Source of the DNA: Myxococcales bacterium
GTDB lineage: Bacteria; Myxococcota_A; Bradymonadia; UBA7976; UBA1532
Length of the DNA stretch: 64,000 nt
Assembly (NCBI GenBank): GCA_020633465.1
Contig: JACKDN010000004.1
Coordinates: forward strand, 130,290-194,289
Reading direction: 5' to 3'
Position numbers and translations under genes: made by a program. Positions 48,399 to 63,653 of the stretch are shown here, one piece after another. Numbering within the stretch: position 1 is the first letter of the stretch; each line of letters begins with the position of its first letter. Under the pieces are notes generated by a model. It saw only the letters and a program-made list of their open reading frames with translations. It did no database searches and was not told the DNA's origin.

Positions 48399-48468
48399 CG
48401 GCGCGGACGATATCACGGGGGGCACGCGGCGGCTTGATCGCGCGCCCGCGCCGACCGATGTTCTTCCC

Positions 48469-49447: not shown

Positions 49448-49449
49448 AC

Positions 49450-50919
49450 ATGCCCGCCGAACTCGACCTGCTGCTGCGCGCGCGCTACCCGCTGATCTGG
49501 CTCGACACGCCCGAGGAGCAGCGCGCGATCGACCTCATCTGCCAGACGGCCACGCGCCTGGGTGATCCCGTGTGCGGCTGGTCGAGCACCTTCGGCCTGC
49601 ACGACCTGCCCGGGCCCCCGAAGGGCGGCAGCCACCAGAGCCCCTCGGCCGTCGTCCAGCACCTGGTGGCCCACGATCGCCGAGCCCTGTGGGTGCTGCA
49701 CGATCTCGGCGAGTTCCTCACCCACGATCCGGCCCTGCAGCGCGCCCTGCGCGACGCCGCGCACGCCGCCCGCCAGCGCGGCGCGGTGATCGTCGTCACC
49801 GGCAACGGCACCGCCCTGCCCCGCAGCCTGCAGGGCATCGCCGCGGTGCACCGCCTCGCCCTGCCCGAGCGCGGCGACCAGGTGCGCCAGCTGCACCAGG
49901 TGGCCGCCCAGTGCAACGTCCGCCTCGACGCCGAGCACGCCCGCCGCCTGGCCACGGCCACCCTGGGCCTGACCCTCGAGCAGGCCGAGAACATCTGGGC
50001 GCGCATCCACGCCTCGGGCGGCCGCTTCGACGGCGGCGACCTGCCCCAGGTGCTGGCCGAGAAGGCCCGCATCGTCCGCGAGACCGGCTTCCTCGACTTC
50101 GTCCCCCCGGCGCGGCTGGAGGACATCGGCGGGCTGGCGCACCTGAAGGCCTGGCTGTCGCGCCGCCAGGTCGCGTTCACCGACCAGGCCCGCGCCCAGG
50201 GCCTGCCCTTCCCGCGCGGCGTCCTGCTGGTGGGCGTGCAGGGCTGCGGCAAGTCGCTCACCGCGAAGGCCGTCGCAGGCCTTTGGGGCCAGCCCCTGCT
50301 GCGGCTGGACGTCGGCGCGCTGATGGAGGGCTTCGTCGGCGCCAGCGAGGGCAACCTGCGGCGCGCCCTCGACCTGGCCGATCGCATCGCGCCCTGCGTG
50401 CTGTGGGTCGACGAGATCGAGAAGGCGCTCACCGGCCTGCGCAGCAGCAACGACGGCGGCGTGCTGACGCGCATGTTCGGCTCGATGCTGACCTGGATGC
50501 AGGAGAAGACGACGCCCACCTTCGTGCTGGCGACGGCGAACTCGATCGAGGGGCTGCCCCCCGAGTTCCTGCGCAAGGGCCGCTTCGACGAGATCTTCTT
50601 CGTCGACCTGCCCGACGCCGGCCAGCGCGCGGACATCTGGCGCATCCACCTCGAGGCGCGGGCGAAGGCCAGCGGCGACGCGGCGCTGCTGCAGCGGACC
50701 GATCTGCGCGACCTGGCCGCCCAGTCCGAGGGGTACAGCGGCGCCGAGATCGCGGCGGCCGTGGTCGAGGGCGCCTTCGAGGCGCTGACCGCCGGCGAGC
50801 CTCTGCAAGGCCACCACGTCACCCGCGCGCTGGCCGCCTCGCCGCCCCTGTCCCGACTGCACGCCGAGTCGCTCGAGGCGCTGCGCGCCTGGGCGCGCGG
50901 CCGCGCCCGGAGCGCCTGA
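49450..50919 (+). CDS. Ycf46-like classical AAA+ ATPase
   Basis: The ATG lies 2 nt after the preceding TAG. Walker A GVQGCGKSLTAKAVA, Walker B CVLWVDEIEK, SRH FVLATANSIEGLPPEFLRKGRFDEIFFVDLP. Confidence 0.85.
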   Translation: MPAELDLLLRARYPLIWLDTPEEQRAIDLICQTATRLGDPVCGWSSTFGLHDLPGPPKGGSHQSPSAVVQHLVAHDRRALWVLHDLGEFLTHDPALQRALRDAAHAARQRGAVIVVTGNGTALPRSLQGIAAVHRLALPERGDQVRQLHQVAAQCNVRLDAEHARRLATATLGLTLEQAENIWARIHASGGRFDGGDLPQVLAEKARIVRETGFLDFVPPARLEDIGGLAHLKAWLSRRQVAFTDQARAQGLPFPRGVLLVGVQGCGKSLTAKAVAGLWGQPLLRLDVGALMEGFVGASEGNLRRALDLADRIAPCVLWVDEIEKALTGLRSSNDGGVLTRMFGSMLTWMQEKTTPTFVLATANSIEGLPPEFLRKGRFDEIFFVDLPDAGQRADIWRIHLEARAKASGDAALLQRTDLRDLAAQSEGYSGAEIAAAVVEGAFEALTAGEPLQGHHVTRALAASPPLSRLHAESLEALRAWARGRARSA

Positions 50920-50920
50920 C

Positions 50921-51406
50921 ATGAGCGTCGTCGTCACCGTCGCCGCGGCCGGCGCCGTCACCGTCGCCGCCCCCATCTTGAGCGCCATCGCCGCCACCGC
51001 CGCCGCGACGCTGGGCCTGAAGGCGCTGGCCGAGGTCGAGGCCGAGCAGCGGCTGGGCGCCGAGGCGCGCGCGTCCGCCCGCAACGAGGCCCGCATCGAG
51101 GCGCGCGTGGCGCAAGAGGCCGCCCTGAGCGAGTTGGTGGCCGACCGCTGCACGCTGCACTTCGGCGACGACCAGATCACGCTCATCGTCCAGCGCGACA
51201 TCCGCGGCCGCCTGACGATCGTCGCGCACGGCGAGCTGCCCGCCACACAGCTCCGCGCGCGCGCCGAACAGCTCCTGGGGCTGATCCAGCAGCAGGTGGC
51301 CTATCGCAACGTCGTGCAGAAGATGAAGGCGCACGGCTTCGCGGTGGACGCCGAGCAGCGGCTCGAGGACGGCACGGCGCGCGTGCGCCTGAAGCTGAAG
51401 CGATGA
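50921..51406 (+). CDS. DUF1257 (Ycf35)-like protein with Ala-rich hydrophobic N-terminus
   Basis: The ATG lies 1 nt after the AAA gene stop. The C-terminus QQQVAYRNVVQKMKAHGFAVDAEQRLEDGTARVRLKLKR resembles the DUF1257 C-terminal signature as I remember it. The N-terminal 35 aa are hydrophobic. Confidence 0.5.
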   Translation: MSVVVTVAAAGAVTVAAPILSAIAATAAATLGLKALAEVEAEQRLGAEARASARNEARIEARVAQEAALSELVADRCTLHFGDDQITLIVQRDIRGRLTIVAHGELPATQLRARAEQLLGLIQQQVAYRNVVQKMKAHGFAVDAEQRLEDGTARVRLKLKR

Positions 51407-52179
51407 GCCGCTTCCAGCACATCGGCGGCGACGCGCCGACCGCGCCCACCCCGCGCGGGGCGGCCGCGCCGGTGCGGGGCTACGCCGACTTCATGGCCGA
51501 GGCCGACGGCGCGCTGCGGCGCGGCCGCTTCGAGGCGGCGCTGCGCTGGTACGGGCGCGCCCTCGAGGAGGATCGCGCGCAGCCCGAGCCCTGGTGCGGC
51601 CAGGTGCGGGCGCTGATCGAGATGGCGCAGCCCCTCGAGGCGCTGACCTGGCTGGAGCAGGCGCAGCGGGTGGTGGGTGAGTCGCCCCAGCTGCTGGGCT
51701 TGTGGGCCATCGCGACCGCGCGCACGGGCGCGCTCGACGACGCGCTCGCGTGGTGCGACCGGGCGATGAAGGCCGGCCCGGACGCGCCCGAGGTGTGGCT
51801 GGCGCGCGCCGAGGTGCTGTACCTCAACCGGCAGGGGCGGCTGGCGCCGGCGACGCTGGACAAGGCGCACGAGCGGGCGCCCGGGCCCGAGACGGCGCGG
51901 CGCTGCGCCGAGGTGGCGCTGACCGCGGCCGATCTGCCGACGGCGCGCGGATGGCTCGAGCGCGCGGTGCGGGCCGCGCCCGACGATCCGCTGGTGGCGC
52001 TGCGCTTCGGGGTCTACTGGGACGCCGCGGGTCACCCCGAGCGCGCGCACCGCGAGCTGACCCGCGCCCTGGCGTTGGAGCCCGGGCTGGAGCCCGCGCG
52101 CCTGGCCCTCGACAGCCTGGGCAGCCCCGGCCTGCTCGACCGGGCGCGCGCGGCGTGGCGGAGGTGGACGCGTGGCTGA
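51403..52179 (+). CDS. TPR-repeat protein
   Basis: ATGA overlap with the upstream gene. Repeats such as FEAALRWYGRALEEDRAQPEPW and LDDALAWCDRAMKAGPDAPEVW. Confidence 0.65.
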   Translation: MSRFQHIGGDAPTAPTPRGAAAPVRGYADFMAEADGALRRGRFEAALRWYGRALEEDRAQPEPWCGQVRALIEMAQPLEALTWLEQAQRVVGESPQLLGLWAIATARTGALDDALAWCDRAMKAGPDAPEVWLARAEVLYLNRQGRLAPATLDKAHERAPGPETARRCAEVALTAADLPTARGWLERAVRAAPDDPLVALRFGVYWDAAGHPERAHRELTRALALEPGLEPARLALDSLGSPGLLDRARAAWRRWTRG

Positions 52180-52396
52180 CGATCCGGTGATCGACCTGGA
52201 GATCCTGCCCGACGGCACGGTGCGCTTCGAGATCGACGGCGTGGCCGGCGAGGACTGCGAGGCGCTCGAGCGCCTGGTGCTCGAGGCGCTGGGCGGCGAG
52301 GTCGTGTCGCGCGAGCGCACCCGCGCCTTCTACGCGCGCACCGGCGCGAAGACCGGCGTGGCCCAGCGGCTGCGCAGCCTGCTGAAGCGGGGTTGA
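52172..52396 (+). CDS. DUF2997-like small protein
   Basis: GTG 52172 overlaps the TPR gene by 8 nt. IDLEILPDGTVRFEIDGVAGEDCEALERLVLEALGGEVVSRERTRAFY fits the DUF2997 pattern (I-x-F-x-I-x-PDG-x-V...G-x-x-G-x-x-C...LG...T-x-EYY) from memory. Confidence 0.6.
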   Translation: MADDPVIDLEILPDGTVRFEIDGVAGEDCEALERLVLEALGGEVVSRERTRAFYARTGAKTGVAQRLRSLLKRG

Positions 52397-52457
52397 GTGA
52401 GCAGGGCGTCGCGCGTCGAGGGGTCGAGGCGCCCCGAGCGGGCAGCAGGCGCCTGAC

Positions 52458-53432
52458 GTGGAGTGCCCGCGCTGCCGCGAGGACAACATGCCCGGGGCGG
52501 TGGCGTGCCTGGGCTGCGGGCAGCCGATGGACGCGCCGGTCGAGGCGCCGCCCAGCTTGGTGCCGCGGGTGCGGTCCGCCGACCCCCTCGGCGTGTCGCC
52601 GCCCCGTCCGCAGGCGCCGCCCCGCGATCCCTACGCACACCTGCGCGAGCGGGTCGACCGACTGCCCTCGGAGTCCCTCGGCGTGGCCCTGGGGGGTCTG
52701 GTGGCGGGCAGCATCCCGGGCTGGCAGGCCGGACGGCGCGGCGACCCGCGCGGGGCGGCGCTGCGGCTCGCCGCGGTGGTGGCGCCGCTCACCCTGATGC
52801 CGCTCGCGTGGCGCACCGACATGCTGCCCTGGCTGGGGTGGTTCGCGGCGTTGGGCTGGGCCTGGAGCCTCGCCGAGGGCGCCCATGATGCGCTGGACCC
52901 GCCGCCGGGCCTGGCCGGCTGGGTCGCCGCTTCGGCGCTCGCCGCGGCGGGCGTCCTCGGGCTGTACGCGGCAGCACGCGGCGCCCTCGACCTCTGGCGA
53001 CCCCCGGTGATCGTCGTCTACGATCTGCCCCGCTTCCCCCACGGCGTCATCCGGGTGCGTCCGCTCGACGCCCTGCCGGCGCCGGGCACGCTGGTCGCCG
53101 CCCGCCCCGCGAACACGCCGCTGCTGGTGACGCCCGTGCTGGCCGGGCCGGGCCAGGTCGTCGGGCTGGGCCACGACGGCGGCGGCGTGCACTTCGTGGT
53201 CGACGGCGCGCCCAGCGAGGTCGTACCGCTGCGCCCGCTGTACGGCGACATCGTCACGCCGCGCACCCATCAGGTGCCCGCCGACCGGGTGATGCTGTAC
53301 GAATGGCCGGTGCGCATCGTGGCGCTCGACGACATCCTCGGCGAGGTCGTCTGGCGCTGGACGCCCGCCGAGCTGCGCGGGCCGGTCATCTGGCCGCCGC
53401 CCGCCGAGGACACCGGAGACGCCGCCGAATGA
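52458..53432 (+). CDS. zinc-ribbon / multi-TM / degenerate S26 (signal-peptidase-I-like) domain protein
   Basis: Zinc ribbon ECPRCREDNMPGAVACLGCG. About four TM segments. The C-terminus GTLVAARP...VTPVLAGPGQVV...VVDGAP...VPADRVMLYEW...LGEVVWRWTP parallels S26 strands, but I see no SM-x-P Ser/Lys catalytic motifs. Confidence 0.55.
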   Translation: MECPRCREDNMPGAVACLGCGQPMDAPVEAPPSLVPRVRSADPLGVSPPRPQAPPRDPYAHLRERVDRLPSESLGVALGGLVAGSIPGWQAGRRGDPRGAALRLAAVVAPLTLMPLAWRTDMLPWLGWFAALGWAWSLAEGAHDALDPPPGLAGWVAASALAAAGVLGLYAAARGALDLWRPPVIVVYDLPRFPHGVIRVRPLDALPAPGTLVAARPANTPLLVTPVLAGPGQVVGLGHDGGGVHFVVDGAPSEVVPLRPLYGDIVTPRTHQVPADRVMLYEWPVRIVALDDILGEVVWRWTPAELRGPVIWPPPAEDTGDAAE

Positions 53433-54487
53433 CGCTCGACCTGACCGACCTGATGCGCGAGGCCATGCAGCGGGGCGCGAGCGACGTGCACCTGCTGACG
53501 CACCAGCCGCCCGCCTTCCGCGTGCACGGGGCCATCGAGCTGTCGCCGCGGCCGGCGGTGGACGAGGCGACGCTGACGCGCGCGCTCGACGCCATCCTCA
53601 CCGAGGCGCAGCGGGCGGAGTGGTTCACGCGCAAGCAGCTCTGCTTCAGCTGGACGCTGCCCGAGCTGGGCTACTTCCGGGTCAGCGTCTACAGCCACAT
53701 GGGGCGCATGGAGGCGGCCATCCGCATCGGCCAGCGGCAGGTGCCCGCCTTCGACGAGCTGGGGCTGCCCGAGGTGCTGGCCGAGCTGGCCTACAAGCCC
53801 TACGGCCTGGTGCTGGTCACCGGGCCGACCGGCGTGGGCAAGACGACCACGCTCAACGCCATCCTCGGGCGGGTGAACGCCGAGGCCCGCAAGAAGATCA
53901 TCACCATCGAGGATCCCGTCGAGTTCCTGATGCCCTCGGGCAAGTCGCTGGTGGTGCAGCAGGAGGTCGGGCTCGACTGCGACAGCTTCGGCGCGGCCTT
54001 GCGCCACGCGCTGCGGCAGGATCCCGACATCCTGTGCATCGGCGAGCTGCGCGACCTCGAGACGATCGCCGCCGCGCTGACCGCCGCCGAGACGGGGCAC
54101 GTGGTGTTCGGCACGCTGCACACGACGGGGGCCGCGGGCACCATCTCGCGCATCGTCGATGTGTTCCCGGCGAACCAGCAGAACCACGTGCGCAGCCAGC
54201 TGGCCCACGTGCTGCGCGCGACGATGAGTCAGCGCCTGCTGCCCCGGGCCGACGGCGACGGGCGGGTGCTGGTGTACGAGCTGATGCTGGCGACGGACGC
54301 CGTGCGCAACGTCATCCGCGACGGGCGCCTGCACCAGCTGGGCACCGTGCTGCAGACGGGGCAGGCGCAGGGGCAGGTGCGGGTCGACGACATGGTGCGC
54401 GACGCCTGGCTGGCGGGGGACATCACCTACGAGACGGCGCACGGCGCGGTGACCGATCCCGGCGTGCTGCAAGCGGCCCGCCGCTGA
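53429..54487 (+). CDS. PilT-family hexameric ATPase
   Basis: ATGA overlap with the upstream gene. Walker A GPTGVGKTTT, Asp box IITIEDPVEF, Walker B DPDILCIGELRD, His box GHVVFGTLHT. Confidence 0.85.
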   Translation: MTLDLTDLMREAMQRGASDVHLLTHQPPAFRVHGAIELSPRPAVDEATLTRALDAILTEAQRAEWFTRKQLCFSWTLPELGYFRVSVYSHMGRMEAAIRIGQRQVPAFDELGLPEVLAELAYKPYGLVLVTGPTGVGKTTTLNAILGRVNAEARKKIITIEDPVEFLMPSGKSLVVQQEVGLDCDSFGAALRHALRQDPDILCIGELRDLETIAAALTAAETGHVVFGTLHTTGAAGTISRIVDVFPANQQNHVRSQLAHVLRATMSQRLLPRADGDGRVLVYELMLATDAVRNVIRDGRLHQLGTVLQTGQAQGQVRVDDMVRDAWLAGDITYETAHGAVTDPGVLQAARR

Positions 54488-54518
54488 CGGGCAGCGCTTC
54501 CGAATCGGGAGGTGCGAC

Positions 54519-55100: not shown

Positions 55101-56702
55101 ATGAAGACCCAGACGCCCCACGCCCGCCTGCGCACCCTGCTGGACGGCACCGCCACCTGGGACGCCTTCGACGCGCTGTGCGACGAGCGACCCGACGGCA
55201 TCGTGTCGGCCACCCGGGCCCTGCTGACCGAGTCCGAGGGGGCCCGGGCGCAGACCCTGGTGCGCTTCCTGGCCCACTGGGGCGACGACGAGGCGGTGGG
55301 GGCCCTGGTCGGCAGCCTCGACCACCCCGACGCGGGCGTGGTGGCGGCGGCGCTCGAGCACCTCAACCGCCTGCGCAGCCGCATCCCGCCGCCCAAGGTG
55401 CGCGCCCTGCTGGGCCACCCCGATCGGCTCGTGGTCCTCGGCGCGCTCGGCGCGGCGGGCCACACGGGCGATCTGTCCCTCGCGCCGGAGGTGGCGGCCT
55501 TCCTGCACAGCGAGGGCGAGCTGCAGGCGCAGGCGGCCGTCGCCCTGGGCCGCATCGGCGCCGACGCCTACGCGCGCCCCCTGGCCGCCGCCCTGCCGCA
55601 CCTCGACGATCTCGCCCGCGAGGCCTACCTGCTGGCCCTCGAGCTGATGGCGGCGCCGAGCGCCATCCCCTACCTGGTCCGCTGGCTCGAGACCGCGCCG
55701 GCCGCCTGGGTGCGCCCCATCGGCCACCTGCTGTGGTGCCTCACCAGCATCGAGCCGCACGACGTCGACGACACCATCGAGGCGCTGCGCGCGGCGTGGC
55801 TGAGCTTGATGCGCAGCGACCAGCCCGATCGGCCGGCCCTGGCGCTGCGCGAGGTCGTCGTCTGCGGGCCGCGGGTGGTGTCGTTCAGCCTGGTGGGCGG
55901 CCAGAGCCGCGTCTACACCGCCTTCGACCACGCCGATCCCGGCGGCCTGGTGCGGTGGAGCCGCTCGCTGTACGTCGACGGGCAGCGCCTGTTCGACGTG
56001 GGCAACGACGGGGGCACCTGCGAGGCGCTGCTGACGCTGGCCGGCTGGCCCCGCGAGCGCGCGCGGCTGGCGGCCGGCCAGCTGGCGACCGAGGTCGACG
56101 GGCTCGAGCTGCTGGACGAGGAGGCGGTGCACCGCTGCCTCCCGCTGCTGTCGACCATGCGCAGCGGCCGCTACCTGGCCGCGCTGCTGGACGTGCCCAT
56201 CGAGCGCATCGATCAGCCGCACCTGAGCTGGCTGTCGCGCCGCCGCCGCGCGCGCGCCGGCACCGCGCCGCCCGACATGGCCTGGGCCGACGGGCCGGAG
56301 CCCAGCGCGCCGCTCGCCGATCTGGTGCACTACCAGACGCCGATGGCCCTGGGCTTCGATCCGCCCACCCACGCCCTGATGATGCCCTCGCAGCCGACCG
56401 CCAAGGTGGACGGCCGCCACGCCGAGGCGCTGGCCGAGCGGCTGCGGGCGGGCCAGCGCCCGGCGGTCATCGCGCAGGGCTGGGTGGACGACCGCTTCGT
56501 CGACGCCCGCGTGGCGTCGCGGCTGCTCGAGATGGTGGTCATCGACGGCCACCACCGGCTGGAGGCCTACGCGCGCGCCGCCGTGCCCGCGCGCGTGCTG
56601 GTGCTGTGTCGGGTCGAGGACTCGTGGGGCCCCCCCGAGCACCCGGCGCGCTATCTGCGGGCGTGCTTCGCCGCGCTCGGGGCCCCGACGACGACGCCGT
56701 GA
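55101..56702 (+). CDS. HEAT-repeat protein with C-terminal ParB/Srx-like (DGHHR) module
   Basis: The N-terminal third has HEAT-like repeats (DDEAVGALVGSLDHPDAGVVAAALEHL; DAYARPLAAALPHL). The C-terminus has MVVIDGHHRLEAYARAAVPARVLV, a ParB N-terminal-domain-type motif. Confidence 0.55.
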   Translation: MKTQTPHARLRTLLDGTATWDAFDALCDERPDGIVSATRALLTESEGARAQTLVRFLAHWGDDEAVGALVGSLDHPDAGVVAAALEHLNRLRSRIPPPKVRALLGHPDRLVVLGALGAAGHTGDLSLAPEVAAFLHSEGELQAQAAVALGRIGADAYARPLAAALPHLDDLAREAYLLALELMAAPSAIPYLVRWLETAPAAWVRPIGHLLWCLTSIEPHDVDDTIEALRAAWLSLMRSDQPDRPALALREVVVCGPRVVSFSLVGGQSRVYTAFDHADPGGLVRWSRSLYVDGQRLFDVGNDGGTCEALLTLAGWPRERARLAAGQLATEVDGLELLDEEAVHRCLPLLSTMRSGRYLAALLDVPIERIDQPHLSWLSRRRRARAGTAPPDMAWADGPEPSAPLADLVHYQTPMALGFDPPTHALMMPSQPTAKVDGRHAEALAERLRAGQRPAVIAQGWVDDRFVDARVASRLLEMVVIDGHHRLEAYARAAVPARVLVLCRVEDSWGPPEHPARYLRACFAALGAPTTTP

Positions 56703-57676
56703 GCGAGCCGCCTCCCCGACGCCCCACCTGGCGAGAGCGGCGCCGCGCGCGGGCCGAGCGGCGCACCTCGGAGCGCGCCGCCGCGACCACCGACGCGCCG
56801 GCCGAGCCGCACGTCGACGCCGAGGGCCACCTGCACGACGGCCCGCCGCGCATCATCGAGGCGCACCCGGGGCCGCACATCGCGACGCCGCCGGTGCGGC
56901 CGGGCTGCCCGGACGGTCACGGCGCCGGCGAGCCGGACGCGCTGTCGGTGATGACCCTCAACGTCGCGCACGGGCGGGGGGCGCGCCTGCACCAGACCTT
57001 CCTGCGGCGGCGCACCATCGAGGCCCACCTGACCGCCATCGCGTCGGTGCTGGGGCGCGAGGCGCCGGATCTGGTGGCGCTGCAGGAGGCCGACGGGCCC
57101 TGCCTGTGGAGCGGCGGCTTCGACCACGTCGACTGGCTGGCGCGCGAGGGCGGGTTCGGCTGGCACGTGCGCGGCAGCCACGTGCAGGGTCGCCGGCTGG
57201 ACTACGGCACCGCGCTGCTGAGCCGGCTGCGCCCGGCCGATCCCCTGGCGATCACCTTCCGCCCGTCGCCGCCGACGCCGACCAAGGGCTTCGTCGTGGC
57301 GACGGTCGAGCACGGGGGGCACACCATCGACGTGGTGTCGGTGCACCTCGACTTCTCGCGCAGCCGGGTGCGGCGGCGGCAGGTGGCCGAGCTGGCCGAG
57401 GCGCTGCAGGCGCGCGACCACCTGCGCGTGGTGATGGGCGACCTGAACTGCGACTGGAAGGAGCGCGGCGGCACGCTGCGCACGCTGAGTGACGCCCTCG
57501 GGGTCGAGCCGCACGCGCCGGACGCGCACGAGGGCTTCGGCACCTACCGCGGGAAGGCGCGCCTGGACTGGGTGCTCACCTCGCCGACCTTGTCGGTGAA
57601 GGACTACCGCGTGCTGCCCGACGTGGTCAGCGACCACCGCGCGGTCGTCGCGCGGCTGGGCTTGCCGGGCGGTTGA
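56699..57676 (+). CDS. endonuclease/exonuclease/phosphatase (EEP) family protein
   Basis: GTG 56699 overlaps the upstream TGA (GTGA). MTLNVAHG, DLVALQEAD, VVSVHLD, VMGDLNCD, SDHRAVV. The Arg-rich 85-aa leader is of uncertain reality. Confidence 0.75.
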   Translation: MSEPPPRRPTWRERRRARAERRTSERAAATTDAPAEPHVDAEGHLHDGPPRIIEAHPGPHIATPPVRPGCPDGHGAGEPDALSVMTLNVAHGRGARLHQTFLRRRTIEAHLTAIASVLGREAPDLVALQEADGPCLWSGGFDHVDWLAREGGFGWHVRGSHVQGRRLDYGTALLSRLRPADPLAITFRPSPPTPTKGFVVATVEHGGHTIDVVSVHLDFSRSRVRRRQVAELAEALQARDHLRVVMGDLNCDWKERGGTLRTLSDALGVEPHAPDAHEGFGTYRGKARLDWVLTSPTLSVKDYRVLPDVVSDHRAVVARLGLPGG

Positions 57677-57743
57677 CGCTACCTTCGGCGCCATGAAGGA
57701 TGTCCACGCGCCCAGCACGCAGTGCCTATCGGCCGGGCTTTCA

Positions 57744-57928
57744 GCTGTCAGCGGTCAGCGGTCAGCTCGGCAACGGCTGAACGGACCGCGGCGCCCGCCC
57801 CCATCGCCGCGGCGCTCCAACTCCGGTGCCGAGCATGACACGCGCCGCGACGGCGCCTGCGGCGTGACCTCGCACCAGACGCGGGGGCAAGCAGACCGGC
57901 TGAGGGCTGACAGCTGACCGCTGACAGC
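57744..57928. repeat. perfect 16-bp inverted repeat (GTCAGC-rich) separated by 153 nt
   Basis: gctgtcagcggtcagc (57744-59) is the reverse complement of gctgaccgctgacagc (57913-28). Both arms sit in GTCAGC(G/T) reiterations. The region is bracketed by the direct repeat gcgccatgaagg at 57688-99 and 57961-72. Confidence 0.8.
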
Positions 57929-57965
57929 CCCTCACGATCCACCGCAGCGTGAGGTGCTTCGCGCC

Positions 57966-59291
57966 ATGAAGGTCCCCGACCATCTGCTCGACGCCATCCA
58001 CGGCGGGCGCTGCGTCGCCTTCGTGGGCGCGGGCTTCAGCGCCGCGGCGCGGCTGCCCGACTGGCGATCGCTGCTGACCGATCTGGCCGAGCACGCGCAC
58101 GTGGACGGGCAGGTTCAGGCCCACGTGCGCGATCTGGTGCTGCGGCCCGACGCGGGCGCGCACGAGTTCGATCAGGCGGCGCAGCTGGTCGAGGATCGCC
58201 TGGGGCGAGCCACCTTCCTCGCCGAGCTGCGCGCGCGGATGCAGGCGCCGCCGCTGGGCGACCTGATGAAGCGGCGGCTGCGGCACCTGCGCGGCATCCC
58301 CTTCCGCGCGATCGTCACGACCAACTTCGACCCCATCTTGGACGGCGAGGTGCCGTCGCCCGCGGCGTACCGGCGGCTGCTGCGGCCGACCGGCTTCCGC
58401 TGGTGGGAAGAGACCTTCTGGAGCGACGAGCCGCGCGGCGCGCGCGTGCTGAAGCTGCACGGCGACGTGCAGTCGGCCGCCGACGCCGACGCGGTCGTGT
58501 TGACCCGGCAGGACTACCGCCGACGCCTGTACCACGATCCCGGCTACATGACCTTCCTGCGCGGGCTGTTGTCGACCAACACCGTGTTGTTCCTCGGTTT
58601 TTCGTTCACCGACGCCTACCTCAACGAGCTGCGCAGCCAGGTGCTGGCCCTGTTCGACCACGGCCACGCCGGCGAGGACGCCCACCCGCTCGCCTACGCG
58701 CTGCTGGCCGACGTGCCCGACCTCACCCGGTTGCACCTGCAGCGCCACGAGGGCATCGAGGTGCTGCCCTTCAGCACGCACCGCGGTGAGGGCCCGCCCG
58801 ACTTCGCCGGCTTCGATCGGTGGCTCGAGGCCGTGTGGCGCGCCACCGCCGTCGAGCCGCGGTTCGGGCGCATGTTGGCCGGGCGCCGGCTGCTGTGGGT
58901 GGATCCTCACCCGGCGAACAACGAGGCGGGGTTCCGCTTCCTGCAGCGCGCCGCCCACGCCCACGATCACGGCGTGGTGCCCCTGCGCACCGTGCCCGAC
59001 GCCACCGCCGCGCTGGACGCGATGGCCGATCAGGGCTTCGGTCCGCGCGATCTGGTCGTGACGCACTGGGGCATCGACGCCGAGCAGGCCACCGGCCAGA
59101 GCACCGCCGAGGCGCTGCTGCGCGGCATGCGCGCCCGCGACCTGCGCACGCCCGTCGTGCTCTTCGCGTCGGCCCGCGAGGCCACCCGCCGCCGCGAGAT
59201 CGCCCTCGGCCTCGGCGCCCAGGCCTACTGCTTCGAGTGGCCGATGCTGTTCCGCGCCATCGAGCGCATCTTCGGACACCCGCACGATTGA
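57966..59291 (+). CDS. SIR2_2-family (SIR2-like) protein with C-terminal receiver-fold-like domain
   Basis: RCVAFVGAGFSAAARLPDWRSLL, IVTTNFDPIL, LKLHGDV and LFLGFSFTD are SIR2_2 signatures. The C-terminal approximately 140 aa (RRLLWVDPHPANNEAG...PVVLFAS...GAQAY) look like a CheY-like beta/alpha domain. Confidence 0.7.
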   Translation: MKVPDHLLDAIHGGRCVAFVGAGFSAAARLPDWRSLLTDLAEHAHVDGQVQAHVRDLVLRPDAGAHEFDQAAQLVEDRLGRATFLAELRARMQAPPLGDLMKRRLRHLRGIPFRAIVTTNFDPILDGEVPSPAAYRRLLRPTGFRWWEETFWSDEPRGARVLKLHGDVQSAADADAVVLTRQDYRRRLYHDPGYMTFLRGLLSTNTVLFLGFSFTDAYLNELRSQVLALFDHGHAGEDAHPLAYALLADVPDLTRLHLQRHEGIEVLPFSTHRGEGPPDFAGFDRWLEAVWRATAVEPRFGRMLAGRRLLWVDPHPANNEAGFRFLQRAAHAHDHGVVPLRTVPDATAALDAMADQGFGPRDLVVTHWGIDAEQATGQSTAEALLRGMRARDLRTPVVLFASAREATRRREIALGLGAQAYCFEWPMLFRAIERIFGHPHD

Positions 59292-61786
59292 GCCGCGCGC
59301 GCCCGCACCTGCCCATCGACGACGTCCTGCCCGCGGTGCTCGACGCGCTGCGCAGCGACGGGGCGGTCGTCGTCGTTGCGCCGCCGGGCGCGGGCAAGAC
59401 GACGCGGGTGCCGCCGGCGGTGCTGGACGCGGGGCTGGCGGGCGCGGGCAAGGTGGTGATGCTGCAGCCACGGCGGGTGGCGGCGCGGGCGTCGGCGGCG
59501 CGCATCGCGAGCGAGCGCGGCGTGTCGCTGGGCGGCGAGGTGGGCTATCGGGTGCGGTTCGACGATCGCACCAGCGCGGCGACGCGCATCGAGGTGCTCA
59601 CCGAGGGGCTGCTGACGCGGCGGCTGCAGGTCGATCCGTTTCTGGAGGACGTCGGCTGCGTGGTGCTCGACGAGTTCCACGAGCGCAGCCTGCACGCCGA
59701 CCTGGCGCTGGCGATGCTGGCCGAGGTGCGGCAGGCGCGCGACGACCTGCGCGTGGTCGTGATGTCGGCCACGCTCGACCCCGGGCCGGTGGCCGGCTTC
59801 CTCGGCTGTGCGGTGGTCGAGGCGGCGGGGCGGGCCTACCCGGTCGAGGTGACCTACGATCCGGCGCCGATGGACGGCCGGCCGGCCGAGCGCGCGGCCG
59901 CGGCGGCGCTGCAGGCGCTGCGCGACACCGCCGACGGGCACGTGCTGGTGTTCCTGCCGGGCGTCGGTGAGATCGAGCGCGCGGCCGAGCGACTGGTCGG
60001 GGCGCCGGCGCAGGTGCTGCCGCTGCACGGCAGCCTGTCGGCGGACGCGCAGGACCGGGCGCTCGCCCCGAGCGCCGACCGCAAGATCGTCCTCGCCACC
60101 AACATCGCCGAGACGTCGGTGACGCTCGAGGGCGTGCGCGTCGTGGTCGACACGGGCCTCGCGCGCGTACCGCGCTTCGATCCCGCCATCGGGCTCACCC
60201 GCCTGGAGCTGGGGCGCATCAGCCGGGCGTCGGCCGAGCAGCGCGCGGGCCGCGCCGGGCGCACGGGACCGGGCCGGTGCCGCCGGCTGTGGACCGAGGC
60301 CGAGCACCGCGGCCTGCTCGACTTCGAGGCGCCGGAGATCCGCCGCGTGGATCTGGCGGGCACCGCGCTGGAGGTGCTGGGCTGGGGCGCCGAGCCGGCG
60401 ACGTTCGGCTGGTTCGAGGCGCCGCCGCCGGCCGCGCTGGCCCACGCGGACGCGGTGCTGCGCCAGGTGGGCGCGCGCGACGACGCCGGGCTGACCCCGC
60501 TGGGCCGCACCCTGCTGCGCCTGCCCCTCTCACCGCGGCTGGCGCGCGTCGTCGTCGAGGGCCACGCGGCGGGCCACCTCACCGCCGCAGCCACGGTGGC
60601 CGCGCTGGCCGCCGAGCGCGATCTGTACCGCGATCCGCCCGACCACGTCGGCGACAGCGATCTGACCCTGCGCCTCGACGCGCTGGCGGCGCACGCGCGC
60701 GGCCGCACGCCGCCCAGGGTGAGCCGCGCGCGCGCCGCCCAGGTGGCCAAGGCGCGCGACCAGCTCGTGCGCGTGGCCCTCGGCGCGCTCGGCCCGCCCA
60801 GCGCCGACGCGCCCGCCGACGAGCGCACGCTCGCCCGCCTGCTGCTGGCCGGCTTCCCGGACCGCGTCGGGCGGCGGCGGGCCCCCAACGCCGACCGCTT
60901 CCGCCTGGCCAGCGGCGCCGGCGCCCGCCTCGACGCGCGCAGCGCCGTGCGCCACGCCGAGCTGATCGTGGCCGTCACCCTCGACGGCGCCCGCCGCGGC
61001 GAGCGCGCCGAGCACCGCGTCCGCATCGCGACGGCCATCGACGCCGCCGATCTGCCCACCACCACCGCCGTCGAGACGCGCTTCGACGCCGAGCGCGAGG
61101 CGGTGACGCAGGTGCAGGTGACCCGCTACCTCGAGCTGGTGCTGGCCGAGGTGCCCGCGGGCCGCGCGGCCGACCCCGCGCAGGTCGCGCGCACGCTGGC
61201 CGAGGCCGTCGCCGTCGATCCGCCGCGCGCCCTGGCGCTCGACGGCGACGCCGCCGCCTTCGTCGACCGCCTGCGCTGGCTGGCCGCCGCCGATCCCCCG
61301 CTCGACCTGCCGACGCTGCCCGAGCTGCAGCCCGGCGCCGAGGTGAGCCCCCTCCTCGAAGCCCTCTGCCACGGCCACCGCAGCTTCGCCGACCTGCGCC
61401 GTCTCGACCTGCACCGCTGGCTGCAGGGTTGGCTGGGCCACGGCGTCGTGCAGACCGTCGACCGCCTCGCCCCCACCCACCTGCCCCTGCCCGACGGCAC
61501 GCGCGGCCGCCTGACCTACGCCCCCGGCCAGCCGCCCGTGCTCGCCGCCCAACTGCAGCGCCTGTTCGGCCTGACCGAGACCCCCCGCGTCGCCGGCGGC
61601 AAGGCGCCGGTGCTGCTGCACCTGCTCGCCCCCAACCAGCGGCCCACCCAGATCACCGCCGACCTCGCCAGCTTCTGGGCCAACGGCTACCCCGAGGTGC
61701 GCAAACAGCTCCGCGGCCGGTACCCCAAGCACCGCTGGCCCGAGGATCCCCTGACGGCCGAACCGGGCGTGCGCCGCCCCCGCTGA
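59288..61786 (+). CDS. hrpB: ATP-dependent DEAH-box RNA helicase HrpB
   Basis: TTG 59288 overlaps the SIR2-like gene's stop (TTGA). LPIDDVLPAVLDAL, APPGAGKTT, LDEFHERS, SATL, ATNIAETSVT, QRAGRAGR. C-terminal HrpB-type domain ending KHRWPEDP. Confidence 0.85.
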   Translation: MSRARPHLPIDDVLPAVLDALRSDGAVVVVAPPGAGKTTRVPPAVLDAGLAGAGKVVMLQPRRVAARASAARIASERGVSLGGEVGYRVRFDDRTSAATRIEVLTEGLLTRRLQVDPFLEDVGCVVLDEFHERSLHADLALAMLAEVRQARDDLRVVVMSATLDPGPVAGFLGCAVVEAAGRAYPVEVTYDPAPMDGRPAERAAAAALQALRDTADGHVLVFLPGVGEIERAAERLVGAPAQVLPLHGSLSADAQDRALAPSADRKIVLATNIAETSVTLEGVRVVVDTGLARVPRFDPAIGLTRLELGRISRASAEQRAGRAGRTGPGRCRRLWTEAEHRGLLDFEAPEIRRVDLAGTALEVLGWGAEPATFGWFEAPPPAALAHADAVLRQVGARDDAGLTPLGRTLLRLPLSPRLARVVVEGHAAGHLTAAATVAALAAERDLYRDPPDHVGDSDLTLRLDALAAHARGRTPPRVSRARAAQVAKARDQLVRVALGALGPPSADAPADERTLARLLLAGFPDRVGRRRAPNADRFRLASGAGARLDARSAVRHAELIVAVTLDGARRGERAEHRVRIATAIDAADLPTTTAVETRFDAEREAVTQVQVTRYLELVLAEVPAGRAADPAQVARTLAEAVAVDPPRALALDGDAAAFVDRLRWLAAADPPLDLPTLPELQPGAEVSPLLEALCHGHRSFADLRRLDLHRWLQGWLGHGVVQTVDRLAPTHLPLPDGTRGRLTYAPGQPPVLAAQLQRLFGLTETPRVAGGKAPVLLHLLAPNQRPTQITADLASFWANGYPEVRKQLRGRYPKHRWPEDPLTAEPGVRRPR

Positions 61787-61879
61787 CCCGGCGCCGCGCC
61801 CTGCGAGGCGCCCGGCCGTGGTCGTCGTCGTCGTGGTCGAGCGCCCGAAGCGCGGCGCACGGACCCCCGCCGCCCGGCG

Positions 61880-63598
61880 TCAGGGATCGAGCTGAGGCAG
61901 TCGCCAGACCGCGACCGCCTGCTTCGCCATGTACCGCTGCCGCGCCCCGATCGCCTCGGCGTCCCAGCGCTCGTACCGCTCGGCGACCGCCCGGGTGGCT
62001 TCGATGGGGCTCAGCAGCATCGCCGCTCGCTTCGCCTCGTAGTCCGCCTGTCCCAACTGACGGTTGGGCTTGCCGTGCAGCAGCACGAGGTTGCCCAGGC
62101 GGTCCACCCACCGGGCGTGCTCGTCCTGAGTGAAGGGACCCCACCCTTCCTCGGGCATCCGATCGGGCAGGATGTGCTCCAGCGTCAGGTCCGACGCCTC
62201 GGTGTCGAGCGGCAGGCGATGCGCGTGCCGGGCCAGTCGCTCGAGGATGTACCGCGCCACCGTGTTGTTGCGCCCCGTGCGCGCGCGCAGCGAGCGCACG
62301 GCGAAGTCACCCCGAAACGCCTCGTCGTCGACGTAGATGGGCGCCAACGCGCGGATGATCGCGCCCGATTGCCCGAGCTCGCCCTCGCTGACCGCGATGG
62401 CGACGCGGTTGTAGGCGCGCTCCTGCTCGGCGGGCGACCGGCCGGCGATCACGTTGTAGCGGAAGCTGATCACCACGCACGCGCGCAGCACGTCGGCGAA
62501 GTCCCCATCGGTCAGCCTCCGACGGCAGGCCAACAGCAACGGCCACGGCTGGCGCACGCCGAAGCTGCGCAGCTCGCGCGCCAGATCCGCCAGCGGCCGA
62601 GACCAGACCTGCTCGTCGGGCTCCGCCAGGCCCATGAACGTCTCGACGTCGTCGTCGAGGGCGCGCAGCAGATCGAAGACCGCCTGCCGCGACGTGACCG
62701 TCTCGCGGATGCGCTTGAAGAGGTGCGCCTCGCGCACCAGCGGAGAGCGGCTGTTCCAGTGCGCGCGCAGGAACGCGGTGAACTGCTTGGCGCCCAGCTG
62801 GCCGACCAGCGACTCCCACCGCCGCTCGAGCGCCTCGAGCTCGTCGTCCGGGGCACCGACGGCCTCCCGGCTCACCACCGCGAACAGGTGGTTCTTCAGC
62901 AAGTCGGTGGGCGACAGCCGCACGCCCCGCGCGTTCAGTGTCTCGAACACCTTGAAGGCGTTCAGCTCGTCGGTGACGACGATCGAGGTGAAGAACAGCG
63001 ACTGCGCCACCTGTTGCAGGAACGCCGCCAGCCCTTCGCCCGTCTTCGCCCCGGCGAACCGCGCGCGGACCCTCCGATCGAACCACTCGAAGGCCTTGCG
63101 CAGCTGATGCTCGGAGCGCCGCCGGTTGCGCCGGGGCAGCTTGGCCAGCGGCACGATGTAGTGCCGGTAGTACGCGTCGTTGTGCCGGTTCAGGCTCAGC
63201 TTGGGTTCGGACACCAACGTGACCGGGTCCAGCGAGCCGACGTAGCGCTTGCGCAGCTCGTCCGCCCGGCGGCGCTCGACGTCCGCGGGATCCGGCGTCT
63301 TCGCGCGCTGCTCGATCTGCCCGATCACCGCCAACGCCAGCAAGCTCAGCGTCGTCAGGCGCTGCTGCCCGTCGATCACGTCGTAGCGCTGGTCGCCGCG
63401 CCCCTGCAGGACGAGGTAGCCCATGTAGTGGCCGACGCCCTCCGCGCCGCCCTCGAACAGCTCCTCGAGGTCCCGCCACAGATCGTCCCACTCCTCCTCG
63501 TCCCAGCTGTAGTCGCGCTGGAACGGCGGCACGCGGTAGCGCACCCCGTTGCCGAGCAGATCGGCGAGCGAGCGGTTCGAAGTGTCGATCGCGAACAT
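61880..63598 (-). CDS. DUF262/DUF1524 (GmrSD-like) protein, candidate type IV restriction/nuclease
   Basis: ATG 63598. DUF262 region: YRVPPFQRDYSWDEEEWDDLWRDL, VIDGQQRLTTLSL. DUF1524 His-Me region: LEHILPDRMP...VDRLGNLVLLHGKPNRQLG. Confidence 0.8.
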   Translation of the reverse strand: MFAIDTSNRSLADLLGNGVRYRVPPFQRDYSWDEEEWDDLWRDLEELFEGGAEGVGHYMGYLVLQGRGDQRYDVIDGQQRLTTLSLLALAVIGQIEQRAKTPDPADVERRRADELRKRYVGSLDPVTLVSEPKLSLNRHNDAYYRHYIVPLAKLPRRNRRRSEHQLRKAFEWFDRRVRARFAGAKTGEGLAAFLQQVAQSLFFTSIVVTDELNAFKVFETLNARGVRLSPTDLLKNHLFAVVSREAVGAPDDELEALERRWESLVGQLGAKQFTAFLRAHWNSRSPLVREAHLFKRIRETVTSRQAVFDLLRALDDDVETFMGLAEPDEQVWSRPLADLARELRSFGVRQPWPLLLACRRRLTDGDFADVLRACVVISFRYNVIAGRSPAEQERAYNRVAIAVSEGELGQSGAIIRALAPIYVDDEAFRGDFAVRSLRARTGRNNTVARYILERLARHAHRLPLDTEASDLTLEHILPDRMPEEGWGPFTQDEHARWVDRLGNLVLLHGKPNRQLGQADYEAKRAAMLLSPIEATRAVAERYERWDAEAIGARQRYMAKQAVAVWRLPQLDP

Positions 63599-63653
63599 GG
63601 CGCGTCCTTCGGGCGACCGCAGCGAGGGTACCATCACCCGCCTCGGCTGAGCG

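What the first reader, a model, noticed from the sequence alone, without database searches (positions are those of the whole stretch)
57966..61786. SIR2_2 protein with a receiver-like domain, translationally coupled (TTGA) to the DEAH helicase HrpB
Seen in the sequence: a 441-aa protein with SIR2_2 signatures (GAGFS, TTNFD, KLHGD) and a C-terminal approximately 140-aa alternating beta/alpha domain that begins LLWVDPHPANN. Its TGA stop (59289-91) overlaps the only plausible HrpB start (TTG 59288). That start aligns with the conserved N-terminal LP..VLP.L..AL of HrpB.

Established knowledge: SIR2-like domains act as NAD+-depleting effectors in several anti-phage systems (Thoeris ThsA, DSR1/2, SIR2-HerA, SIR2-pAgo). 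Helicases are frequent sensor partners. HrpB itself is normally regarded as a housekeeping or poorly understood RNA helicase.

Inference: a two-gene SIR2-REC-like/HrpB module could be an RNA-sensing NADase system, or a regulatory sirtuin-like pair. I do not know of a described system with this composition.
Basis: partly seen in the sequence, partly recalled or inferred. Interest (0 to 1): 0.7.

Follow-up and report, generated by a model that had tools for sequence, protein, structure and literature searches.

The report
Solo SIR2–pseudo-receiver gene beside ordinary hrpB
The two genes are real and overlap by four bases, but comparison with relatives shows that an uncharacterised NAD-cleaving-type SIR2 protein with a degenerate receiver domain merely sits next to an ordinary HrpB helicase in one narrow bacterial lineage, so they are not a conserved two-gene system.

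Summary
Bases 57966-59291 (+) encode a 441-aa protein with a Pfam SIR2_2 domain whose catalytic Asn120, Asp122 and His165 are intact. Its C-terminal ~135 aa has a receiver (CheY) fold. The TGA stop overlaps a TTG at 59288, which starts a full-length, equivalog-level HrpB.

The proposed SIR2-REC/HrpB module is not supported. The pair occurs only in the window and two close lineages (SIR2 92-93% and 72% identical). In those lineages about eleven genes are syntenic, so the pairing carries no independent weight. None of 79 other genome loci of the family has hrpB within the flank held (up to 10 kb), and a 58%-identical relative lacks it too. All five nearest HrpB outgroups (66-67%) lack the SIR2 gene.

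The SIR2-REC protein belongs to a sizeable unnamed family: 487 hits among 90% clusters, 312 representatives at E<=1e-10. The family has no conserved neighbour and almost no defence genes nearby, and none was found on viral contigs. Its receiver domain lacks the phospho-acceptor Asp (His366 instead) and the conserved Lys, so it is a pseudo-receiver. That domain is found almost only fused to SIR2_2.

Best reading: a stand-alone, pseudo-receiver-gated NAD+-consuming enzyme, co-transcribed by local accident with housekeeping hrpB. Interest is modest.

The parts
57966..59291 (+). Gene for the 441-aa SIR2_2 + pseudo-receiver protein
   Evidence: ORF. Pfam SIR2_2 at 7e-23. PADLOC ThsA, LmuA and Dsr1 models match the SIR2 portion only. 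AF2 model has pLDDT 86 and pTM 0.86. 487 homologues, about 50% identical over the full length.
57966..58850 (+). SIR2_2 catalytic domain (residues ~1-295): GAGFS loop, Asn120/Asp122 (TTNFD), His165 (LHGD)
   Evidence: These residues are invariant in 24 family members. They align to TTNYD and HGDV of EcThsA and SeThsA. Top Foldseek hits are the SIR2 domains of ThsA, KomC and DSR2, E 1e-11 to 1e-9.
58890..59288 (+). C-terminal receiver-fold domain (residues 309-441), a pseudo-receiver: His366 replaces the phospho-acceptor Asp, the beta5 Lys is absent, Asp313 is kept
   Evidence: AF2 model of residues 296-441 has pLDDT 90 and a (beta-alpha)5 topology. Foldseek top hits are receiver domains: Spo0A, CKI1, FleR and XynC, target-normalised TM 0.6-0.73. 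The family profile matches the PmrA receiver at 2e-6, with 'dLvithwG' aligned to 'DLILLDLG'. Pfam Response_reg matches only weakly, in 9 of 20 members.
59288..59291 (+). TTGA stop/start overlap between the SIR2-REC gene and hrpB
   Evidence: Seen in the sequence. The same TTGA is in L001; GTGA is at the homologous site in L081. L090 has the same 4-nt overlap by gene coordinates.
59288..61786 (+). hrpB, an ATP-dependent DEAH/RHA helicase of 832 aa
   Evidence: TIGR01970 scores 755.7 bits against a cut-off of 546.15. Pfam DEAD, Helicase_C and HrpB_C all match. 7996 homologues at E<=1e-50.
57677..57965 (+). 289-nt intergenic element upstream of the SIR2 gene. It has a 12-nt direct repeat GCGCCATGAAGG (57688, 57961) and a 23-nt inverted repeat (57744-57766 / 57906-57928). 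It probably carries the pair's own promoter or operator, or is a small inserted element.
   Evidence: Repeats. Mean column identity is 93% across window, L090 and L001. It is absent in L081, where the EEP stop overlaps the SIR2 start as TTGA. RNA fold z-score is -2.7.
56699..57676 (+). Context: endonuclease/exonuclease/phosphatase (EEP) family gene. It lies upstream in the same orientation and overlaps the HEAT-repeat gene (55101-56702) by 4 nt.
   Evidence: Pfam Exo_endo_phos on the orthologues in L081 and L090. HEAT_2 on the window protein.
61880..63637 (-). Context: GmrSD-type (DUF262/DUF1524) type IV restriction-like gene, convergent with hrpB
   Evidence: Pfam GmrSD_N at 2e-39 and GmrSD_C at 3e-23. 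PADLOC HEC-06 at 1.8e-202. It is also downstream of hrpB in L001.

Best explanation
Two functionally independent genes share a transcript in one lineage.

Gene 1 encodes a stand-alone SIR2_2 enzyme fused to a dedicated pseudo-receiver domain. The SIR2 domain has the Gly-rich NAD loop and the Asn/Asp/His catalytic set of the defence-type NAD+ glycohydrolases ThsA, DSR2 and KomC. It is therefore most likely an NAD+-consuming enzyme: an NADase, or less likely an ADP-ribosyltransferase. This is inferred from homology.

The C-terminal domain has the receiver fold but cannot be phosphorylated on the canonical Asp. It most likely acts as a regulatory switch that keeps the NADase off until a trigger is met. 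That switch could work through ligand or partner binding, or through oligomerisation, by analogy with the C-terminal sensor domains of ThsA and DSR2. This too is inferred, and the trigger is unknown.

Gene 2 is an ordinary HrpB RNA helicase. Its start overlaps the SIR2 stop (TTGA), so the two are probably co-transcribed and translationally coupled here. The juxtaposition arose once in a shallow clade and reflects local gene order, not a conserved sensor-effector partnership.
For: Domains and catalytic residues:
- Receiver fold with the acceptor Asp replaced by His366. Position 366 varies in the family (H, Y, R, C, D).
- HrpB reaches equivalog level.

Linkage is confined to a narrow clade:
- tblastn with HrpB hits only L001 among 80 genome loci.
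- L081-84 (SIR2 72%, HrpB 77%) and L090 (93%) share the whole order AAA-DUF1257-TPR-DUF2997-x-T2SSE-glyoxalase-HEAT-EEP-SIR2-HrpB.
- The 58% relative P0003 has opposite-strand neighbours on both sides.
- The nearest HrpB outgroups P0123-P0127 have five different upstream genes, and none is SIR2.

The family is a solo gene:
- No conserved neighbour cluster exists; the best recurs in 11 of 80 loci.
- 96 immediate and 146 further neighbours are heterogeneous housekeeping genes.
- The pseudo-receiver profile finds 312 representatives at E<=1e-10. In the 150 best hits that are near full length it sits C-terminal to where the SIR2 domain lies, and SIR2_2 was confirmed in five of the ten odd-looking hits scanned.
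Against: - The 4-nt overlap is kept with a different start codon (TTGA versus GTGA) even though the SIR2 C-terminal tail differs by about 20 residues. That fits selection for coupled expression in this clade.
- A GmrSD-type defence gene lies just downstream of hrpB, so hrpB is flanked by two defence-like genes.
- NADase activity and the regulatory role of the pseudo-receiver are not demonstrated.
- The family is not defence-island associated and was not found on viral contigs. This weakens the immune reading of the NADase.
- No expression data exist. Only DNA runs, mostly activated-sludge and wastewater metagenomes plus a few marine, estuary and biofloc ones, hold the sequence.
Confidence: 0.72

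Rival explanations
1. Lineage-specific functional module. In this clade HrpB has been recruited as the nucleic-acid sensor or partner of the SIR2-REC NADase.
For: The stop/start overlap is retained in three lineages with different start codons. SIR2 effectors do pair with helicases or ATPases in known systems such as SIR2-HerA (established knowledge). A GmrSD defence gene lies next door.
Against: The same clade conserves about eleven genes of synteny, so the pairing has no independent support. The pair is absent in 79 of 80 family loci, in the 58% relative and in 5 of 5 nearest HrpB outgroups. HrpB is not divergent: it is a TIGR01970 equivalog. Four-base overlaps are the commonest overlap type in high-GC operons (established knowledge). 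No paper in the library links HrpB and SIR2 in bacteria.
Confidence: 0.08
2. The SIR2-REC protein is a single-gene anti-phage abortive-infection NADase. The pseudo-receiver senses a phage cue. hrpB is a bystander.
For: The closest sequence and structure matches are all defence NADases: ThsA, LmuA-SIR2, Dsr1/2 and KomC. The taxonomic spread is patchy: Myxococcota, Actinomycetota, Chromatiaceae, Gemmatimonadota, Planctomycetota and Verrucomicrobiota, with 109 tblastn-confirmed places in a collection of 185,579 species genomes. Some members carry an XRE-HTH or metallophosphoesterase fusion.
Against: Among 242 neighbouring genes of about 60 loci, hardly any match PADLOC models beyond generic kinases and DinG-type helicases. 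None was found on viral contigs. The pseudo-receiver shows no effector swapping, as it is found almost only with SIR2_2. No PADLOC or NCBIfam model covers the full protein.
Confidence: 0.3
3. The SIR2-REC protein is a housekeeping or regulatory NAD+-dependent modifier, a protein deacylase or ADP-ribosyltransferase. It would act in signalling in developmentally complex bacteria, and NAD+ depletion would not be its function.
For: Genomic contexts are housekeeping and variable. The family is enriched in Myxococcota and Actinomycetota. Pseudo-receivers are used as protein-interaction modules in signalling (established knowledge, for example FrzS and KaiA). NUDIX neighbours occur in 3 of 96 cases, and Metallophos fusions exist. 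Both would fit turnover of ADP-ribose-type products, which is an inference.
Against: There is no match to the classical sirtuin family; human sirtuin-2 scores only E=0.86. Pfam reports SIR2_2 alone. The nearest relatives are all NADases.
Confidence: 0.2

Closest known systems
Thoeris ThsA (SIR2 + SLOG/STALD NADase)
   Same: Both have an N-terminal SIR2_2 domain with the same catalytic Asn and His, followed by a C-terminal alpha/beta sensor-type domain in a protein of about 450-480 aa. ThsA gives the best sequence and structure matches.
   Different: The C-terminal domain here is a receiver fold, not SLOG. PADLOC ThsA models align only to the SIR2 part. No ThsB/TIR partner and no other conserved neighbour was found.
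DSR1/DSR2 and KomC (Kongming) defence sirtuins
   Same: The SIR2 NADase core is shared, with target-normalised TM of about 0.7.
   Different: DSR proteins are about 1000-1200 aa with large helical sensor regions. NCBIfam Dsr1 scores 28.5 bits against a cut-off of 1400. KomC is a 264-278-aa SIR2-only subunit of a multi-gene system. Neither has a receiver domain.
SIR2-HerA (Nezha) and other SIR2 + ATPase/helicase pairs
   Same: A SIR2 gene lies next to an NTPase that acts on nucleic acids.
   Different: HrpB is an SF2 DEAH/RHA RNA helicase, not a HerA/FtsK-type ATPase. The adjacency is not conserved across the SIR2 family.
Two-component response regulators, and Detocs DtcC (receiver + effector)
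   Same: Both join a receiver-fold domain to an enzymatic effector that attacks an essential nucleotide cofactor. Detocs is described in bioRxiv 10.1101/2023.01.24.525353.
   Different: The domain order is reversed here, with the effector N-terminal. The phospho-acceptor Asp and the Lys are missing. No histidine kinase recurs nearby.
cRec, the divergent receiver domains of NAD+/ADP-ribose and RNA-repair contexts (Iyer et al., PMC7824862; PMC9503650)
   Same: Both are receiver-like domains never linked to a histidine kinase, found together with NAD+-processing domains.
   Different: cRec is defined as keeping the catalytic aspartates and is predicted to be a cyclic-phosphate esterase. Here the beta3 Asp is lost. 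No cRec sequence was available for a direct comparison.
HrpB of E. coli, Pseudomonas and Xanthomonas
   Same: It is a full-length orthologue with DEAD, Helicase_C and HrpB_C domains.
   Different: Nothing notable was found beyond the TTG start overlapping the upstream gene.

Membership tests
SIR2_2 (PF13289) NAD+-utilising domain | Pfam model above the gathering score, with the Gly-rich NAD loop and the catalytic Asn and His present | tested here: met
   The score is 81.7 bits against a cut-off of 24.5. GAGFS, Asn120, Asp122 and His165 are invariant in 24 members and align to the ThsA motifs.
Thoeris ThsA | C-terminal SLOG/STALD domain that binds the ThsB-made signal | tested here: not met
   The C-terminal domain is a receiver fold. 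PADLOC ThsA hits cover profile positions 12-213 of 478 only.
Thoeris ThsA | Adjacent ThsB (TIR) gene | tested here: not met
   The window neighbours are EEP and HrpB. No recurrent neighbour was found in 80 loci.
DSR1/DSR2 | A protein of about 1000 aa or more, with SIR2 plus a large C-terminal sensor; NCBIfam Dsr1 equivalog score | tested here: not met
   The protein is 441 aa. NF041818 scores 28.5 bits against a cut-off of 1400, over residues 2-125 only.
   HrpB is found next to the SIR2 gene only in L001, L090 and L081-84. It is absent in 79 other loci, next to P0003 and next to five HrpB outgroups.
Canonical response-regulator receiver (PF00072) | Phospho-acceptor Asp at the end of beta3, Lys at the end of beta5, acidic pair after beta1 | tested here: not met
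   His366 aligns to the acceptor Asp of PmrA, and no Lys follows 'AYC'. Only one Asp, Asp313, follows beta1. Position 366 varies in the family. Pfam Response_reg stays below threshold.
Canonical response-regulator receiver (PF00072) | (beta-alpha)5 CheY-like fold | tested here: met
   The AF2 topology is five strands alternating with helices. Foldseek matches receiver domains with target-normalised TM 0.6-0.73.
Two-component system | Cognate histidine kinase encoded nearby | tested here: not met
   No HisKA or HATPase family appears among the recurrent neighbour families. The lists show only the top 25 families, so single occurrences cannot be excluded.
cRec domain | Receiver-like fold that keeps the catalytic aspartates, in NAD+/ADPr or RNA-repair contexts | tested here: inconclusive
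   The context (fusion to SIR2) fits. The beta3 Asp is absent while Asp313 and Asp362 are conserved. No cRec reference sequence was available.
HrpB (TIGR01970) | Equivalog score, and DEAD + Helicase_C + HrpB_C architecture | tested here: met
   The score is 755.7 bits against a cut-off of 546.15. HrpB_C matches at 1.7e-45.
Classical sirtuin deacylases (CobB/Sir2, PF02146) | Match to the classical sirtuin model, including its Zn-binding module | tested here: not met
   Pfam reports only SIR2_2. The best classical sirtuin in the PDB scores E=0.86.
Defence-island gene (guilt by association) | Family members are frequently next to known defence genes | tested here: not met
   Among 96 immediate neighbours, PADLOC hits come from two kinase-domain proteins. 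Among 146 genes at positions +-2 to 5, only a handful hit, such as DinG, Mokosh-like and mad3 models. The gene calls were crude and the sample was about 60 loci.

The most novel reading that the evidence does not exclude
In this activated-sludge Myxococcota-like lineage, the solo SIR2-pseudo-receiver NADase may have captured the housekeeping helicase HrpB as an RNA-sensing partner. That would create a young, clade-restricted SIR2-REC/HrpB immune or stress module, and an example of a defence system being born from a housekeeping gene.
Probability: 0.07. Interest if true: 0.75.

Novelty: new variant of a known kind. Interest (0 to 1): 0.3.

Why it matters
The proposed SIR2-REC/HrpB system would have been a new sensor-effector pairing, but the evidence says it is a local gene-order accident.

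What remains is a fairly large, unnamed family. It has at least 312 clusters at 50% identity, mainly in Myxococcota and Actinomycetota. In it, a defence-type SIR2 NADase core is permanently fused to a private pseudo-receiver domain, and it sits in housekeeping contexts.

If the pseudo-receiver gates NAD+ hydrolysis, this would be a further way of controlling SIR2 effectors, alongside SLOG in ThsA and the helical sensor of DSR2. It would also be a case where a defence-like NADase is not island-associated. That bears on how far 'SIR2_2 = immunity' can be generalised.

Tried and rejected
- Conserved-partner search. All-against-all BLAST of ORFs within +-6 kb of 80 loci gave no partner. The best cluster recurs in 11 of 80 loci at varying distance and orientation, and is probably kinase or repeat proteins.
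- Defence-island test. PADLOC on 96 + 146 neighbours was essentially negative.
- Viral carriage. A scan of IMG/VR found no relative.
- Effector swapping. A profile of the pseudo-receiver was searched against 1.84 billion representatives. In the best 150 the near-full-length hits carry the domain at the SIR2-REC position. Ten odd-looking hits were scanned: five had SIR2_2, two (Glu_synthase, sigma-70 r2) look like fused or misjoined metagenomic gene calls, one had a weak Response_reg match and two had no Pfam match.
- Promoter and terminator consensus scans of 57400-62100 found nothing, which is uninformative at 74% GC.
- Rfam on the whole window found nothing.
- Expression evidence. Only DNA metagenome runs hold the sequence, and there are no RNA runs.
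- Literature. No paper links HrpB with bacterial SIR2, and none describes SIR2 plus a receiver.
- Horizontal-transfer signal. GC and GC3 of the SIR2 gene (72.9% / 94.6%) are not distinct from several neighbours.
- ThsA-like SLOG identity for the C-terminal domain was rejected by fold and profile matches.
- A second hrpB or hrpA copy is absent from the 64-kb window. The rest of the genome could not be searched.

Full report
**Observation.** The ORF from 57966 (ATG) to 59291 (TGA) on the + strand encodes 441 aa.

- Pfam gives SIR2_2 over residues 115-266 (E=7e-23, 81.7 bits, cut-off 24.5).
- PADLOC models of ThsA, LmuA and Dsr1 match only the SIR2 part.
- The sequence GAT TGA at 59286-59291 contains a TTG at 59288 in the hrpB frame.
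- From that TTG the 832-aa product scores 755.7 bits on TIGR01970 HrpB (cut-off 546.15), with model position 1 at residue 8. It also has DEAD, Helicase_C and HrpB_C domains.
- Other in-frame starts exist: GTG at 59237 and GTG at 59336. The homologous position in a 72%-identical relative is a GTG that again overlaps the upstream stop, so 59288 is the best call.

**The SIR2-REC protein.** A search of 5.8 billion proteins gave 487 hits. The top 120 are 45-93% identical over 95-100% of the query. Some sources label them 'CheY-like'.

- In an alignment of 24 members, G21, G23, S25, N120, D122, H165 and G166 are invariant. They align with TTNYD and HGDV of ThsA structures.
- The full-length AF2 model is confident (pLDDT 86, pTM 0.86). 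Its best PDB matches are the SIR2 domains of ThsA, KomC and DSR2.
- The C-terminal 146 residues, modelled alone (pLDDT 90), form a five-stranded beta-alpha domain. Its best structural matches are receiver domains, with target-normalised TM 0.6-0.73.
- A profile of the domain hits the PmrA receiver at 2e-6. The family's 'DLVITHWG' is aligned on 'DLILLDLG'. His366 therefore occupies the phospho-acceptor position, which is H, Y, R, C or D across the family.
- The beta5 Lys is absent, and only one acidic residue (Asp313) follows beta1.

The domain is a pseudo-receiver.

**Is the SIR2-hrpB pair a module?** I collected 80 genome loci of the family from GTDB species representatives, out of 109 confirmed. 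Several lines of evidence bear on the question.

- tblastn with the window's HrpB hits only L001, a 92%-identical near-relative.
- A 93%-identical relative (L090) and a 72%-identical one (L081-84, HrpB 77%) also have the pair with a 4-nt overlap: TTGA in L001, GTGA in L081, and the same overlap by gene coordinates in L090.
- These contigs, however, share the entire order AAA, DUF1257, TPR, DUF2997, unknown, T2SSE, glyoxalase, HEAT, EEP, SIR2, HrpB. The pairing is therefore no more conserved than everything around it.
- The next relative, P0003 at 58%, is flanked by opposite-strand genes on both sides.
- The five closest HrpB proteins outside the clade (66-67% identity) have five different upstream neighbours: an unannotated gene on the opposite strand beside a sigma-factor gene, a redoxin pair, an epimerase, an FG-GAP protein and an unknown gene. 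None is a SIR2 gene.

The exception is the shallow clade itself.

**What accompanies the family elsewhere?** All-against-all clustering of flanking ORFs found no conserved neighbour; the best cluster recurs in 11 of 80 loci.

- Pfam on 96 immediate neighbours and 146 genes at positions +-2 to 5 gave ferritin, NUDIX, transporters, methyltransferases, peptidases, CTP synthase, tryptophan-synthesis enzymes and similar.
- PADLOC hits were limited to two kinase-domain proteins, DinG-type helicases and a few others.
- No relative was found on viral contigs.
- Architectural variants exist: an N-terminal XRE helix-turn-helix version of about 600 aa, and a C-terminal calcineurin-like phosphoesterase version of about 730 aa.
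- A profile of the pseudo-receiver searched against 1.84 billion representatives gave 312 hits at E<=1e-10 and 74 at E<=1e-30. In the best 150, the hits of about 400-480 aa carry the domain at about residues 290-450, and many shorter ones look like fragments.
- Ten hits of unusual length or domain position were scanned with Pfam. Five have SIR2_2. Two (Glu_synthase, sigma-70 r2) look like fused or misjoined gene calls. One has a weak Response_reg match and two have no Pfam match.

The two domains thus form a fixed unit. There is no effector swapping, no obligate partner and no defence-island signature.

**Mechanism.**

Shown:
- An intact SIR2_2 catalytic set.
- A receiver fold without the acceptor residues.
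- A probable shared transcript with hrpB in this clade.

Inferred:
- The enzyme consumes NAD+. It is most likely a glycohydrolase, like its nearest relatives ThsA, DSR2 and KomC.
- The pseudo-receiver gates this activity through ligand or partner binding or through oligomerisation, as C-terminal sensor domains do in ThsA and DSR2.
- The conserved, remodelled pocket residues (D313, N319, W368, G369, F400, Y421) are compatible with a binding site. This is not tested.

Whether the biological role is immunity, stress response or regulation is open. Homology points to defence NADases, and genomic context does not. HrpB is a housekeeping RNA helicase by homology and by the literature (PMC7237152, PMC4804567).

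**Local context.** In the window, a GmrSD/HEC-06 type IV restriction-like gene lies convergent to hrpB, as it does in L001. hrpB is therefore flanked by two defence-like genes, which keeps a small probability for a local functional link.

A conserved 289-nt element (57677-57965) separates the pair from the upstream HEAT-EEP genes.
- It has 12-nt direct repeats and a 23-nt inverted repeat.
- It is present in the 92-93% relatives.
- It is absent in the 72% relative, where the EEP stop overlaps the SIR2 start as TTGA.
- It may supply a promoter or operator, or it may be a small inserted element.

**Comparison and novelty.** The protein works most like ThsA, with an SIR2 domain followed by a C-terminal alpha/beta sensor. 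It fails ThsA membership because it has no SLOG domain and no ThsB neighbour.

- It fails DSR membership on size and on the NCBIfam score.
- It is not a response regulator.
- The 'cRec' concept of divergent receivers in NAD+/ADPr contexts (PMC7824862, PMC9503650) is the nearest idea for the C-terminal domain. cRec keeps the catalytic aspartates, and no reference sequence was available to test.
- No paper in the library describes SIR2 plus a receiver, or a SIR2-HrpB pair.

I rate the architecture a new variant of a known kind. The proposed two-gene system is not supported, and overall interest is modest.

Noticed in passing
window 57677-57965: A 289-nt intergenic element lies between the EEP gene and the SIR2 gene. 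It has a 12-nt direct repeat GCGCCATGAAGG (57688 and 57961; the second copy contains the SIR2 ATG) and a 23-nt, 96%-complementary inverted repeat built of GCTGACA/GCGGTCA heptads (57744-57766 / 57906-57928). Mean column identity is 93% across window, L090 and L001. It is absent in the 72% relative L081, where the EEP stop and SIR2 start overlap. The heptad motif occurs nowhere else in the window. It could be a small inserted element or an operator or leader.
   Followed up: partly
window 61880-63637 (-): A full-length GmrSD-type (DUF262 + DUF1524) protein lies convergent with hrpB, 93 nt away. PADLOC HEC-06 matches at 1.8e-202. It is also present downstream of hrpB in L001.
   Followed up: partly
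window 55101-57676 (+); L081 5435-8004: The HEAT-repeat protein (533 aa) and an endonuclease/exonuclease/phosphatase-family protein overlap by 4 nt. In L081 the chain of 4-nt overlaps continues through SIR2 into hrpB. The ancestral arrangement therefore looks like one tightly packed HEAT-EEP-SIR2-hrpB operon.
   Followed up: partly
window ~48400-54500 (+); L090 497-6515: Upstream is a conserved cluster: radical SAM, AAA ATPase, DUF1257, a TPR protein, DUF2997, an unknown gene and a T2SSE/PilT-like ATPase. It is syntenic in all three lineages. Its function is unknown.
   Followed up: no
P0088, P0095 (SIR2-REC-Metallophos); P0010, P0032, P0254 (XRE-HTH-SIR2-REC): Some family members carry a C-terminal calcineurin-like phosphoesterase or an N-terminal XRE helix-turn-helix. 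NUDIX genes are immediate neighbours in 3 of 96 cases. The phosphoesterase and NUDIX links would fit processing of ADP-ribose-type products.
   Followed up: partly
window 61787-61879: The 93-nt convergent spacer between hrpB and the GmrSD gene is 85% GC and contains a (GTC)n run, GGTCGTCGTCGTCGTGGTCG. No terminator-like hairpin with a T-run was detected.
   Followed up: no
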